Below are positions 3,813-25,524 of a stretch of 64,000 bases of DNA, piece by piece. Within the stretch, counting starts at the first letter, position 1, and every line of letters starts with the position of its first letter. Origin of the DNA: the human T2T-CHM13v2.0 reference genome, Homo sapiens; NCBI RefSeq assembly GCF_009914755.1, contig NC_060931.1; one strand, given 5' to 3'. The notes below the pieces were generated by a model that did no database searches, was not told where the DNA came from, and saw only the letters and a list, made by a program, of their open reading frames with translations. The translations under genes and the position numbers were made by a program.

Positions 3813-3933
3813 ATGCAGAAGCCCAGCGGCCTGAAGCCCCCCGGCCGTGGGGGGAAGCACTCCAGCCCCATGGGCCGGACATCTACTGGGTCAGCTTCAT
3901 CCTCGGCGGCGGTGGCCGCTAGCTCCAAGGAAG
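3813..3933 (+). CDS. CLIP2: CLIP2 exon 2 coding part, aa 1-40
   Basis: accgccATG; MQKPSGLKPPGRGGKHSSPMGRTSTGSASSSAAVAASSKE; donor AAG|gtacgt; phase 1. Confidence 0.95.
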
Positions 3934-10545: not shown

Positions 10546-11803
10546 ACAAGTTGTTTTAAACAGCTAGATTGTGCATTCTACTTTTTCTCATCTTATTGCA
10601 TCCTATGGGAAGCACCTCCCTGTGCTACTGTGATATCACCTGCTGTCATCTGAATGGTTCCCTGGAGGGAACGGACTGTAGTGTGGTGTGTGGCGTGCCA
10701 CCTGCTTCCTAGTCACATTGCCCGGTGGTCTGGGGATGGGGACAAGGACTGGGTGGTCGGACTGCCTTGGGCCTCCACCCTCAAAGCTGTCCCAGAGAGA
10801 GAAAGTGTCCCTCCGAGAATCCCCAATTGACAGGGGAGCCACACCTTGTGCCTGACCTTGGAGATGGTGGCAGCAGAGGCTGTGGCTGGGCTTGGTGGTG
10901 TCCTCTCCCTTCACTGCACCCCGGCTGCTGCCTTTGCAGGGCAGAACTAGACTCCCAGGCTGGGGAAGGAGGTGGCCAGCCTGGAGCAAAACCGAGTTGG
11001 CTGAGACAGCCAAACTCCAGGAGAGAGAAAGGGAGAATTCTGCTGCTTTTGTTCCTGTTCCAAGATCTTGAGAAAAAAAAAAAAAAAAAAAGCCTCTGGG
11101 AAGAGTGACAGGTGGAAGAGCCAGGGAAGGACGGTCCCCCCAGTCCTGTTGGCCCTTCGGGCTCCCTCACCCACCCATGCAACTGTCCATCTGTTCTCCG
11201 AGGGGCTGGAGGCGGCCACATCCATCAGAGGCTGGGACCCTGGGCAGTGGGCAGCTCGAGATGTGTGTGGCAGAGGCCGGGGCCTGGCAGTGGTTTGTGG
11301 GGAGGGGAGCATGCTGGAGTCTGCTCTGGGAACGGGGTTGTGGCTGCCTCCCAAAACATGAGCTCAGCCTCCGGCAGAGGATCTGGCCAAGGGACAGGGC
11401 CTGGACTGGTGCCCTTGCTGCCCACCCAGTGGAGAGGGGAGGGCCTGTATCCTCAGAGCTGTGCCACACAGGGAGCAGCATTTGAGGGGGACCTTTGAGA
11501 GGGTCTCTCACACTAGGAGGTGGTGCAGGGCTACAAGGGAGAGGTGGTCAGAGCAGGTGGGCAGGAGGGCGGTTTGGGATCCACCTGGGGGCAAAGTCCT
11601 GGGTGGAGCAGCGTGGCGAGGGACAGCCTGGCCGGGTGTGACCGAGCACACCTGGAGGCTGGTGCAGACAGGGTGGTCAGGGACGGCCTGGCTCCAGTGG
11701 TGACATTGGAGCAAGGATTCAAGTGATGAGCAGGAGTCGCCCCAGCTGCCGTTCAGGGAAAAACATCCAGGCAGAGGGAACAGAGGCTGCAAAGGCCCTG
11801 AGG

Positions 11804-13655
<1,852 letters not shown>

Positions 13656-14096
13656 AGCATTGTGGTTCTAGTTCACTGAGCTCAATGTCCCTGTACCCCG
13701 TGAGTGTTCCAGACCTTGGCACCAACCTGAAGTGCCCGAGGTGGGGCCCCCACCCCCACCGAGGATGGTGCCTTTCTCTTTCCTTTCCATACATTTCTAG
13801 GAGCCTTCCCAGCCCCAGGAGAGCAGGTAGGATTGTCCCCATTTTAAGTGACTTGTCTGAGATGTTGGGCAAATTCGTCCCTTCAAGGGCAACTTCTCGG
13901 CTCTCCACTGACCACATCCTAAACTTTTTAATGGCATCAGGACGGGGAAGCCAAGCCCGCTCTTCTGTGGCTGGTGGGGGTGGGGGCAGGGCTGCCTCCT
14001 AATGTCCCTGACGTGGTCCAGGATCGATCTGACGGGGCGGGGGTCCGGCTGCCAGCACCTGTCTGCCTGCCTGGTGGCCTGGCCACGGGCTTCTCC

Positions 14097-14124
14097 ATGG
14101 GGAGCTGGCTCTGTTCTTTCCAGG
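14097..14124 (+). CDS. Candidate alternative first coding exon (MGSWLCSFQ-G), unverified
   Basis: ATG GGG AGC TGG CTC TGT TCT TTC CAG G|gtaagc; phase-1 donor matches exon 3; GC box and TGACGTGG just upstream. Confidence 0.35.
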
Positions 14125-15004
14125 GTAAGCCATCCGGGCCGCTCTTGCCCTGGGTTCCCCGGCCGCCTCTGCTGAGCAGAGACTCTGTTCTCCTGGTTTG
14201 GGAGGAGGGGGCACAGAAGTGGGGTTTGGAGTTCCATTTGGTTCAGGAAGAATGCCCAGCAGAGCCTGGGATTCAGGACGGTGTGGGCTGCTGGAGGGAG
14301 GAACCCTTCTTTAGGGCTGGATGCTGCAGAGGCTGGGCCTGGGGTGGCCACAGGAGAGAGGTGAGTTTCAGACGGACCCCTCCCTGGTCGGGGTGGGCTG
14401 GGGGATGTAGACTCGGTCCTCCCTGGAGCAGGCATGGACTGAGGGGTGGAAACAGGTTGGGGTGGACCCAATGCGGGGACTGCCGGAGGGAAAGTGGCCT
14501 CTTCAAGGAATGCTGTGGAGACCCCATTCCTTCCTTCGTAACCTCTGCCTTTGAGCACCTTCGGGAGAGAAAAGGAGGCTCAGGAGAGAAAGCCATTTGA
14601 GATTTTTGGGGCACTGATGCATGTTCCTTTGGGGCCACCAGGAAGCGGGAGTCAGGTGTGTGGCCCGTCTGCATTTCAGCCCAGGGGGTCCAGGGGATGA
14701 GAGGGGAGTTGGTGTGAGTCCACCTCCTGGGGCTCATGTTCTGGGGGTGTGCAGACATGCACCCCAGTTAGCCTGGGAGTCAGGTTGTGCAAACCAAGGG
14801 GGAACAGAGCCCCATGGGGTTGGGAGGGAGAGAGACACAGTGGGCCCCTTGAGATGGCTGCAGATGAGGGGATGTGGAGTTGCTATGGACGGGCATGAGG
14901 ACTTCCTTAGGTGATCCTAAGGGTAAAGTGCTGTACTCAAGGCAGAAGGATGGAGCTTTGCCTGAAACAGCCTGCTTGATGCCTGTGGTATTGGTAAAAT
15001 GCCT

Positions 15005-18863
<3,859 letters not shown>

Positions 18864-23430: not shown

Positions 23431-24385
23431 TAGCCACCCTTCCACTTTCCGGGGTCTGTGGACCCTGAGGCCTTAGGCTGGGCTGCAGCTTGGGGAGGGG
23501 AGAAAGGGGGAGGCCCAGGAGAGAGTTAGGAGGGTTTTCTTTCCTGTCCCAAGAGAGACAGAAGGGGACATCTTTATGCAAGAAGTCTGTGGCTGTGTCC
23601 CTCTATTAGGAAATAGGCTGGTAGCCTTTTGTGGGCCCTGTAACCGTCTGAGGGCGAGGATGGGGGTCTCGGAGACCACTTGCACAACACCTAGGTCCCA
23701 CATAGGGGCCACAGGGGGTCTCGGGTCAACAGCTGAGGGCCTGAGCCCACCTGGTGGGGGGGTGGCTTGTAATCCTTGAGAACGGGTTCCTCCCTGGCCC
23801 AGGACTTACAGTTTCCTTGAGAAGTGGAAAGCCATTGCTTCTTTTTTTTTTTTTGTCTTTTTAAAAATGAAGTCTTTCTCTTTCCCCTAGGCTGGAGTGC
23901 AGTGATGTGATTTCAACTCACTGCAATCTCCACCTCTCGAGTTCAAGTGATCCTCCCACCTTAGCCTCCTCACTAGCTGGGATTACAGGCACCTGCCACC
24001 ACACCTGGCTAATTATTTTATTTTTAGTAGAGATGGGGTTTCACCATATTGGTCAGGCTGGTCTTGAACTCCTGATCTTAGGTGATCCGCCTGCCTCGGC
24101 CTCCCAAAGTGCTGGGATTACAGGCATGAGCCACCGTGCCCGGCCTGGAAACATTGCTTCTGAGGGCGTACTTTCCTGGGGACGCTCTGGAGGGCTGGAA
24201 GAGTAGGGGGAGACCTGAGGAGGACCTGCCCAAGACCACACAGCCAACCATTCCTGCCTCGGTTTCCATGGCAAGACCATGTCTCTACAAAAAAATACAA
24301 AAATTAGCCCAGTGTAGTGGCAGGTGTCTGTGGTTTCAGCTACTCGGGAGGCTGAGGTAGAGGATTGCTGGAGCCCAGGAAGTCA

Positions 24386-24616
<231 letters not shown>

Positions 24617-24695
24617 TTAGACTCTGTGCTCCTGGGGCCACCCAGGGGCCAGCCCTAACAGCCACCTCTTTCCCTTTCCCTCTCCTTCTCTGCAG

Positions 24696-25252
24696 GCTCC
24701 CCACTGCACAAACAGTCATCTGGACCCTCCTCCTCCCCGGCCGCAGCTGCTGCCCCCGAGAAGCCGGGCCCCAAGGCGGCGGAAGTGGGGGATGACTTCC
24801 TGGGGGACTTTGTGGTGGGCGAGCGGGTGTGGGTGAACGGCGTGAAGCCAGGCGTGGTGCAGTATCTGGGAGAGACGCAGTTCGCACCGGGCCAGTGGGC
24901 TGGCGTGGTGCTGGACGACCCGGTGGGCAAGAATGATGGCGCGGTGGGCGGCGTGCGCTACTTCGAGTGCCCGGCCCTCCAGGGTATCTTCACGCGGCCC
25001 TCCAAGCTGACCCGGCAGCCCACGGCCGAGGGCTCGGGGAGTGATGCCCACTCCGTGGAGTCGCTGACTGCCCAGAACCTGTCATTGCATTCGGGCACGG
25101 CCACGCCCCCGCTGACCAGCCGCGTCATCCCCCTGCGGGAGAGCGTCCTCAACAGCTCCGTGAAGACCGGCAACGAGTCGGGATCCAACCTCTCAGACAG
25201 CGGCTCTGTGAAGCGGGGCGAAAAGGACCTGCGCCTGGGGGACCGCGTGCTG
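24696..25252 (+). CDS. CLIP2: CLIP2 exon 3, CAP-Gly domain 1
   Basis: Long pyrimidine tract plus tgcag|; GSPLHKQ...VGERVWVNGVKPGVVQYLGETQFAPGQWAGVVLDDPVGKNDG...LGDRVL; donor CTG|gtgagt; 557 nt. Confidence 0.97.
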
Positions 25253-25524
25253 GTGAGTGCGGGCAGTACTGGGCTCTGGGCCCAGCTTCCCTTCCCTCCC
25301 CTGCTCCGCCCCACTTGGCGAAGCTGGACCCCCCTGGGCTGGGCAGGGTGGGGACTCGAAGGGGGCTCGGACAGGGTCCAGCCTGGGACACCCATTCCTT
25401 ATCAGGACCATACAGAGTGACAAGAGAGACAGGTAATGTGGGCTCTGGAGACTGTTGCTGTGTGACCTTGGGCAAGTGTCCTAAACTTTCTGGGCCTCGC
25501 TCTTTCTATCGGTAAAATGGGATA

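What the first reader, a model, noticed from the sequence alone, without database searches (positions are those of the whole stretch)
14000..14130. Candidate unannotated alternative first exon encoding a lipid-anchor N-terminus (MGSWLCSFQ) for CLIP2
Seen: a repeat-free, locally CpG-rich island in mid intron 2 has TGACGTGG (14009), TGACG (14030) and a GC box GGGGCGGGGG (14034). These are followed by ATG 14097 encoding MGSWLCSFQ+G and a strong donor AGG|GTAAGC with G-runs downstream. The donor is phase 1, like exon 2, so splicing to exon 3 gives MGSWLCSFQGSPLHKQ... with both CAP-Gly domains intact. Established: G-S-W-L-C-S fits the PROSITE N-myristoylation pattern G-{EDRKHPFYW}-x-x-[STAGCN]-{P}; a nearby Cys is the usual second (palmitoyl) anchor; TGACGTGG is the XBP1/ATF6 UPRE. 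Inference: a promoter-switched, membrane-anchored CLIP-115 linking membranes to microtubule plus ends, possibly stress- or cAMP-inducible. Caveats: Kozak -3 is T, and I cannot tell whether this is already annotated.
Basis: partly seen in the sequence, partly recalled or inferred. Interest (0 to 1): 0.8.

Follow-up and report, generated by a model that had tools for sequence, protein, structure and literature searches.

The report
Conserved alternative CLIP2 start exon
A tiny stretch inside a CLIP2 intron, able to give this microtubule-tip protein a new fat-anchored front end, is conserved from human to opossum and so is probably a real alternative start exon, though its use in human tissue is untested.

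Summary
The donor AGG|GTAAGC follows 14124 in phase 1, the same phase as exon 2. Two claims fail. The site is not a CpG island (CpG o/e 0.39-0.44). The downstream G-runs are unremarkable.

The main result is conservation. Four non-human proteins carry this peptide.
- A tree-shrew CLIP2 model has MGSWLCSFQG joined directly to exon 3.
- An opossum CLIP2 isoform starts MGSALCAFQG joined to exon 3. It otherwise equals the canonical opossum isoform.
- Two unnamed unspliced ORFs keep FSMGSWLCSFQGK exactly. One does so with about 34% identity in its flanks and frame-shifting indels upstream of the ATG.

Conservation therefore runs from just before the ATG to the donor, as expected for a first coding exon.

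The N-terminus meets the NMT recognition rules at positions 2, 3, 5 and 6, and Cys6 is conserved.

Human transcription, the transcription start site and lipidation could not be tested here. The stress or cAMP inducibility idea is weak, because the second TGACG and the full UPRE are not conserved. I found no paper describing this isoform. I could not see GENCODE or the other two RefSeq transcripts.

The parts
14097..14124 (+). Coding part of the candidate alternative first exon: ATG, then MGSWLCSFQ, plus the first base of a split Gly codon (phase 1).
   Evidence: Read directly. The peptide is identical in Tupaia P0021, P0133 and P0134, and is MGSALCAFQ in opossum P0102. The opossum 9-mer has its unique best codon-distance match in the window here, and tblastn agrees.
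14125..14130 (+). 5' splice donor GTAAGC (exon side AGG).
   Evidence: PWM score 4.52, above 5 of 9 annotated donors; 7 of 1115 GT sites in intron 2 score as high. The unspliced ORFs P0133 and P0134 read Gly-Lys here, which is compatible with GGT AAR. P0021 and P0102 join exon 3 exactly after the Gly.
14005..14096 (+). Inferred 5'UTR and transcription-start zone. This is inference only. A start downstream of the out-of-frame ATG at 14002 would make ATG 14097 the first ATG.
   Evidence: P0133 and P0134 switch between human reading frames upstream of the ATG, so the stretch is not kept as coding. No expression data were available.
13983..14030 (+). Conserved upstream block (reads GAGLPPNVPDVVQDRS in the ATG frame). 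It contains TGACGTGG at 14009-14016 and ATCGAT at 14023-14028.
   Evidence: In the tblastn the upstream block (human GAGLPPNVPDVVQDRS) is nearly identical in the Tupaia P0021 prefix. P0134 keeps GAGLPP, then HDVL and IDL in shifted frames.
14030..14043 (+). Second TGACG (14030-14034) and GC box GGGGCGGGGG (14034-14043).
   Evidence: Present in human. This stretch falls in the gapped, poorly conserved part of the Tupaia and P0134 alignments.
24696..25252 (+). CLIP2 exon 3, the acceptor target. It encodes SPLHKQ... and the first CAP-Gly domain.
   Evidence: Hub annotation; translation; CAP_GLY at residues 40-104, E 2.5e-25.
3813..3933 (+). Coding part of canonical exon 2 (40 residues plus one base). 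The alternative exon would replace it.
   Evidence: Hub annotation; sequence. 111 of the 120 listed orthologue models carry this N-terminus.

Best explanation
Window 14097-14124 is the coding end of a real alternative 5' exon of CLIP2, conserved across therian mammals.

Proposed mechanism:
- A transcript starting shortly upstream, probably between about 14005 and 14096, is spliced from the donor at 14124|14125 to exon 3 at 24696.
- The canonical 40-residue basic, serine-rich N-terminus is replaced by MGSWLCSFQ. Both CAP-Gly domains and the coiled coil stay intact.
- The product would be 31 residues shorter than the canonical protein.
- After removal of Met1, Gly2 is a plausible N-myristoyltransferase substrate and Cys6 a plausible S-palmitoylation site. 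Together they would hold this microtubule plus-end protein on membranes.

Shown here: the sequence features, local conservation bounded by the ATG and the donor, and spliced gene models in two other species.

Inferred: the promoter or transcription start site, use in human, translation, and both lipid modifications.

My odds: about 0.75 that it is a real exon in some mammals, about 0.55 that it is used in human, and about 0.35 that a lipid-anchored protein results.
For: (1) Gene models. Opossum P0102 (993 aa) begins MGSALCAFQG followed by SPLHKQ. It equals the canonical opossum isoform P0101 (1022 aa) apart from a swap of 39 N-terminal residues for 10. Tupaia P0021 reads ...GFSMGSWLCSFQG followed by SPLHKQ, and its prefix maps to 13983-14126 at E 1.8e-23.

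(2) Local constraint. P0134 is 41% identical to the human translation over 120 columns. FSMGSWLCSFQGK is 13 of 13 identical, against 36 of 107 elsewhere.

(3) The upstream stretch is not kept as coding. P0133 and P0134 align partly to another human frame upstream of the ATG, whereas the ATG-to-donor block has no indel in any of the four sequences.

(4) The opossum 9-mer has a unique best codon-distance match at this site: total 3, next best 5 and 6, over 127,946 positions.

(5) The donor is strong and its phase matches exon 2. By my arithmetic, about 0.07 such ATG + myristoylation-pattern + donor arrangements are expected in intron 2.

(6) NMT motif M-G-[^DEFRWY]-X-[^DEKR]-[ACGST], as quoted in PMC9018777 (passage). 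Positions 3, 5 and 6 are met in human and opossum. Both human-opossum substitutions fall at positions 4 and 7. The same paper reports that a Ser6-to-Cys Galpha-o N-terminal construct still binds membranes.
Against: - No human RNA, CAGE, chromatin or proteomic evidence could be consulted.
- Of the 120 listed CLIP2 orthologue models, 111 have the canonical N-terminus, 2 are partial, and only 2 carry this exon.
- Two targeted searches found no further carrier: 36 hits of 87 candidates, and 11 of 34. Clustering may hide isoforms.
- A gene model alone is weak evidence. Horse P0048 and tamarin P0003 place other first exons in this intron, orthologous to window about 11120-11202 and 23705-23758. I do not know what evidence underlies P0021 or P0102.
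- P0133 and P0134 are unspliced ORF calls, so they show conservation, not splicing.
- Kozak position -3 is T, and an out-of-frame ATG lies at 14002.
- There is no CpG island.
- Position 7 lacks the preferred Lys/Arg.
- The vole model P0018 (MGAMCRRGG) does not map here, so rodent conservation is unknown.
Confidence: 0.6

Rival explanations
1. The block is a conserved intronic regulatory element, such as an enhancer or a promoter of a non-coding transcript. Its ATG, open frame and GT are incidental, and the two gene models are annotation by-products.
For: The upstream block 13983-14030 is also conserved in Tupaia. The hub lists RefSeq enhancers elsewhere in the gene. Annotation pipelines invent other first exons in this intron (P0003, P0048). 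No human expression data were seen.
Against: The sharpest conservation runs from just upstream of the ATG to the donor, with no indel, while both flanks carry indels and frameshifts. The opossum model joins exon 3 in the same phase after the same Gly. The two human-opossum substitutions spare Gly2, Ser3, Leu5 and Cys6.
Confidence: 0.15
2. It is a real exon but not a promoter-driven first exon. It would be an internal alternative exon, spliced from non-coding exon 1 or from exon 2. Depending on the acceptor used, it would provide the start codon, insert residues, or act as a poison exon.
For: A pyrimidine-rich acceptor lies at AG 13799-13800, which would give a 324-nt exon. An AG at 14054-14055 would give a 69-nt exon that is in frame and, by my reading, has no stop. 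No promoter evidence exists and there is no CpG island.
Against: The frame has a stop at 13929-13931, and out-of-frame ATGs lie at 13862, 13931 and 14002. The long form would therefore be poorly translated from exon 1 or terminate after exon 2. The stretch upstream of the ATG is frameshifted in P0133 and P0134. The opossum protein starts exactly at this Met.
Confidence: 0.12
3. Chance: an unconstrained intronic ATG, short ORF and GT with no function.
For: With a lenient donor threshold, 51 ATG-to-phase-1-donor arrangements exist in intron 2. 10 of 290 intron ATGs fit the loose PROSITE pattern. TGACGTGG is not enriched.
Against: The peptide is identical in three other species, 8 of 10 residues match in a marsupial, and the flanks diverge.
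Confidence: 0.05

Closest known systems
Canonical CLIP-115 / CLIP2 isoforms (NM_003388 and the shorter variant)
   Same: Everything from exon 3 onward: both CAP-Gly domains (the first confirmed) and the coiled coil.
   Different: The first 40 residues (exon 2 coding, 3813-3933) are replaced by nine residues beginning Met-Gly. The start would lie about 10 kb downstream of exon 2, inside intron 2.
CLIPR-59 (CLIP3), the lipid-anchored member of the CLIP-170 family
   Same: A CAP-Gly protein held on membranes by fatty acylation. It is S-acylated at Cys534 and Cys535 by zDHHC17 (PMC8061761, passages and table). PMC2174080 (passages) calls it the first family member with an identified membrane-localisation domain.
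   Different: Its anchor is C-terminal, palmitoyl only, and part of the constitutive protein. The anchor proposed here is N-terminal, myristoyl plus possibly palmitoyl, and switched on by choice of first exon. It is a different gene, so this is likeness of mechanism, not membership.
Myristoyl-plus-palmitoyl N-termini of G-alpha and Src-family proteins
   Same: Gly2 with a nearby Cys. The motif quoted in PMC9018777 is met at positions 3, 5 and 6. In that paper a Ser6-to-Cys Galpha-o N-terminal construct stayed membrane bound and appeared doubly palmitoylated.
   Different: There is no Cys at position 3 and no Lys/Arg at position 7. PMC2133112 (passages) states that Ser or Thr is preferred at position 6. 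No experimental labelling exists for this peptide.
Genes whose alternative first exons switch an N-myristoylation signal on or off (ABL1 type 1b versus 1a; membrane versus soluble CYB5R3).
   Same: Promoter or first-exon choice decides whether the protein starts Met-Gly and is lipid anchored.
   Different: These are unrelated proteins, cited as an analogy from memory only.

Membership tests
Alternative 5' coding exon of a protein-coding gene | Consensus-strength GT donor at its 3' end | tested here: met
   AGG|GTAAGC scores 4.52 on a PWM from recalled frequencies. This is above 5 of 9 annotated donors, and 7 of 1115 GT sites in intron 2 score as high.
Alternative 5' coding exon of a protein-coding gene | ATG-initiated frame that is open to the donor and in phase with the next constitutive exon | tested here: met
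   28 coding nt, phase 1, as for exon 2. The Gly codon is completed by 24696-24697.
Alternative 5' coding exon of a protein-coding gene | Conservation bounded by the exon, with less conserved flanks | tested here: met
   13 of 13 identical in P0134 against 36 of 107 elsewhere. The peptide is identical in Tupaia and P0133, and 8 of 10 identical in opossum. Frameshifts occur upstream only.
Alternative 5' coding exon of a protein-coding gene | Spliced to the downstream exon in a transcript or gene model | tested here: met
   Opossum P0102 and Tupaia P0021 join it to SPLHKQ. The evidence behind those models is unknown to me.
Alternative 5' coding exon of a protein-coding gene | Transcription start and junction reads in human | not testable with these tools
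   No expression, CAGE or chromatin data were available. Four literature searches found nothing relevant.
N-myristoyltransferase substrates | Gly at position 2 after the initiator Met | tested here: met
   ATG GGG. Conserved in all four other sequences.
N-myristoyltransferase substrates | Permitted residues at positions 3 and 5 and [ACGST] at position 6 (motif as quoted in PMC9018777), plus the PROSITE pattern | tested here: met
   Ser3, Leu5 and Cys6 in human and opossum. PROSITE pattern match. Motif text.
N-myristoyltransferase substrates | Lys/Arg at position 7. This is a preference: the quoted passage says substrates lacking it are not excluded, and that human G-alpha subunits lack it. | tested here: not met
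   Ser7 in human, Ala7 in opossum (passage).
N-myristoyltransferase substrates | Covalent myristate on Gly2 | not testable with these tools
   Needs metabolic labelling or mass spectrometry.
Dually acylated N-termini (myristoyl plus palmitoyl) | Cys close to the myristoylated Gly | tested here: met
   Cys6 is present in all five sequences. Whether it is palmitoylated is untested.
CpG-island promoter | CpG observed/expected of at least about 0.6 over at least 200 bp at high GC (criterion recalled) | tested here: not met
   o/e is 0.39-0.44 at GC 64-68%. The real island in the window lies at about 24700-25300, with o/e about 0.8.
UPRE/CRE-driven promoter | TGACGTGG or TGACG present and conserved | tested here: inconclusive
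   Present in human. The amino acids allow TGACGTGG in Tupaia. P0134 has Leu after Val, so the last G is lost. The second TGACG is lost in Tupaia (Asp to Asn) and in P0134. Factor binding is not testable here.

The most novel reading that the evidence does not exclude
Therian mammals keep a second, lipid-anchored form of CLIP-115. An intron-2 promoter would give it a myristoyl-Gly2 / palmitoyl-Cys6 N-terminus in place of the basic serine-rich one. That would tether membranes directly to growing microtubule ends.

This could explain why endogenous CLIP-115 was found on dendritic lamellar bodies, whereas the cloned canonical form goes only to microtubules (PMC2174080, passages). The isoform would also be part of the CLIP2 dosage lost in Williams syndrome. 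Knock-outs or assays aimed at exon 2 would miss it.
Probability: 0.3. Interest if true: 0.75.

Novelty: new member of a known kind. Interest (0 to 1): 0.6.

Why it matters
CLIP-115 was named a cytoplasmic linker because it was seen on a membranous organelle. No membrane-binding part has been identified, and the expressed canonical protein decorates microtubules only (PMC2174080). A conserved first exon that adds a myristoylation and palmitoylation signal would provide that missing part. It would make the question directly testable with a G2A or C6S mutant.

It would also add an isoform to a Williams-syndrome gene. Reagents, knock-outs and variant interpretation centred on exon 2 do not cover that isoform.

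Tried and rejected
(1) Horse isoform X1 (P0048). I first took its first exon to be this one. A codon-distance scan put its unique best match at window 11175 instead. The human sequence there has no GT donor and has an upstream stop, so it is a different exon and says nothing about 14097.

(2) A paralogous exon in CLIP1. CLIP1 has a comparable intron. The degenerate pattern for M-G-S-x-L-C-x-F-Q plus donor is unique in the genome: 1 forward, 0 reverse, controls 0 and 0. With up to 3 mismatches there are 84 + 63 hits (controls 30 + 24). None of the chromosome 12 hits listed lies near 122.37 Mb. 47 hits were not listed.

(3) More carriers of the peptide. Two region-restricted protein searches added none. 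The short hits there read through the intron just upstream of exon 3.

(4) Vole P0018 (MGAMCRRGG) does not map to 14097, so its origin is unresolved.

(5) Rfam shows only Alu-type hits in the flanks. Pfam finds nothing on the upstream ORF translation.

(6) Literature. There were 0 papers for CLIP2 + 'alternative promoter', 0 for CLIP2 + 'alternative first exon' and 0 for the peptide string. CLIP2 + myristoylation gave 3 papers, none relevant by title. CLIP-115 + isoform + exon gave 22, and CYLN2 + promoter + exon gave 10; I read search listings only and found nothing on this exon. Supplementary tables were not searched.

Full report
**What is in the sequence.**
- TGACGTGG lies at 14009-14016, TGACG at 14030-14034 and GGGGCGGGGG at 14034-14043.
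- ATG 14097 opens MGSWLCSFQ plus one G. The exon would end at 14124, followed by GTAAGC.
- Exon 2 ends ...AAG GAA G|gtacgt and exon 3 begins GC TCC CCA. Both exon 2 and the candidate therefore end in phase 1 and complete a Gly codon before SPLHKQ.
- ATG 14097 is the first in-frame ATG after a stop at 13929-13931. Out-of-frame ATGs lie at 13862, 13931 and 14002.
- The stretch is single copy in the assembly. It sits between Alu-type matches, with no Rfam match from 13708 to 15052.

**What is not there.**
- The site is GC-rich (64-68%) but is not a CpG island. CpG o/e is 0.39-0.44, against 0.29 for the whole window, and the 200-bp window on the site ranks 641 of 3190.
- The only island-like stretch in the window lies over exon 3, with o/e about 0.8.
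- Five GGG runs follow the donor, but 19% of 1606 GC-matched windows have as many.

**Chance.**
- TGACGTGG is not enriched: 2 found against 0.76 expected, and 12 of 100 shuffles reach 2.
- GC boxes are common throughout the window: 5 found against 0.55 expected.
- On a donor matrix typed from recalled textbook frequencies, the donor scores 4.52. That beats 5 of the 9 annotated donors, and 7 of 1115 GT sites in intron 2 score as high.
- Two ATG-to-phase-1-donor arrangements of that strength exist in intron 2, and 7 in the window. Only this one fits the loose PROSITE myristoylation pattern, which 10 of 290 intron ATGs fit.
- By my arithmetic this gives about 0.07 expected in the intron. That is suggestive, but the features were chosen after seeing the sequence.

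**Other species: gene models.**
- I searched the protein database with the exon-3 translation, asking for longer proteins. It returned 2101 hits, of which 120 were listed.
- Of the 120, 111 have the canonical MQKPSGLK...KEG front end, 2 are partial and 7 differ.
- Two of the 7 carry this exon. Tupaia P0021 reads ...GFSMGSWLCSFQG then SPLHKQ. Opossum P0102 starts MGSALCAFQG then SPLHKQ.
- P0102 (993 aa) is otherwise the same as the canonical opossum isoform P0101 (1022 aa).
- The Tupaia prefix maps to 13983-14126 at E 1.8e-23.
- The opossum 9-mer has its single best codon-distance match in the whole window at 14097: total 3, next best 5 and 6, over 127,946 positions.

**Other species: unspliced ORFs.**
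- A phmmer search of 1.84 billion representatives used the translation of 13932-14123 as query. It gave 4 hits, two of them repetitive and unrelated.
- P0133 is from a close relative, 84% identical over 14058-14288.
- P0134 is divergent, 41% identical over 120 columns. It keeps FSMGSWLCSFQGK at 13 of 13, against 36 of 107 elsewhere.
- In both, part of the stretch upstream of the ATG aligns to a different human reading frame. The upstream stretch is therefore not maintained as coding, while the ATG-to-donor block has no indel.
- Both are unspliced ORF calls. They show constraint, not splicing.

**Limits of the cross-species evidence.**
- Two further searches aimed at the peptide found no other carrier: 36 hits of 87 candidates, and 11 of 34.
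- The database is clustered, so absence is weak evidence.
- Gene models can be wrong. The horse X1 model uses a different first exon, orthologous to about 11120-11202, where human has no donor. A tamarin model uses one at 23705-23758.
- I do not know what evidence underlies P0021 or P0102.

**Promoter claims.**
- The block reading GAGLPPNVPDVVQDRS (13983-14030) is nearly identical in Tupaia, so TGACGTGG may be kept there.
- In P0134 the residue after Val is Leu, which rules out the final G of the 8-mer.
- The second TGACG falls on Asp to Asn in Tupaia and is lost in P0134. The GC box lies in the gapped part of both alignments.
- Stress or cAMP control is therefore unsupported.

**Lipid anchor.**
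- PMC9018777 (passages) quotes the NMT motif as M-G-[^DEFRWY]-X-[^DEKR]-[ACGST]-[KR]. It says a basic residue at position 7 is not obligatory.
- The same paper reports that a Ser6-to-Cys Galpha-o N-terminal construct still binds membranes and seems doubly palmitoylated.
- Human and opossum peptides meet positions 3, 5 and 6 but not 7. Their two differences fall at positions 4 and 7.
- PMC2133112 (passages) notes that Ser or Thr is preferred at position 6.
- Lipidation is thus plausible but unproven.

**Context.**
- Exon 3 carries a full CAP-Gly domain, so the isoform would keep microtubule binding.
- PMC2174080 (passages) records that CLIP-115 was seen on dendritic lamellar bodies. It also records that expressed CLIP-115 goes to microtubules, not membranes.
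- CLIPR-59, a relative, is membrane anchored through palmitoylated Cys534 and Cys535 (PMC8061761).
- No CLIP1 counterpart of the exon was found.
- No paper describing this exon turned up.

**Verdict.** This is most likely a real, conserved alternative 5' coding exon of CLIP2 (about 0.6 as stated, with a lipid-anchored product about 0.35). The rivals are a conserved regulatory element (0.15), an internal rather than first exon (0.12), and chance (0.05). Whether GENCODE or the other two RefSeq transcripts already hold it is open.

Noticed in passing
window 11120-11202 (+): Orthologous to the end of the first coding exon of a horse CLIP2 'isoform X1' model (P0048). The horse LWNWPSALR has its unique best codon-distance match at 11175. 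Human reads ...GKDGPPSPV...CNCPSVLRG there, but has no GT donor after it and an in-frame stop upstream.
   Followed up: partly
window 23705-23758 (+): The N-terminal prefix of a tamarin CLIP2 model (P0003) maps here (84% identity, E 6e-9). This is about 1 kb upstream of exon 3 and would be another model-specific first exon in intron 2.
   Followed up: no
window about 24680-25300: The only CpG-island-like stretch in the window (GC 68%, CpG o/e about 0.76-0.82 over 500 bp) lies over coding exon 3, not at any annotated start.
   Followed up: no
window 14023-14028: The palindrome ATCGAT sits in the conserved upstream block. The amino acids of Tupaia (QDRS) and of P0134 (IDL, in a shifted frame) are compatible with its being kept. 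From memory it resembles a CUX/CDP-type site; this was not tested.
   Followed up: no
window 24600-24695 (intron just upstream of exon 3): Several short unnamed database proteins (P0123-P0127, P0130) and two named models (P0015, P0031) begin by reading through this intron end (...LSPNHCLSPHPTG, then exon 3). These are unspliced or ab initio calls. Human has a stop in that frame.
   Followed up: partly
window 13797-14579 (-): A 260-codon stop-free frame runs on the opposite strand across the site. That is expected in GC-rich DNA. It was not searched against any library.
   Followed up: no
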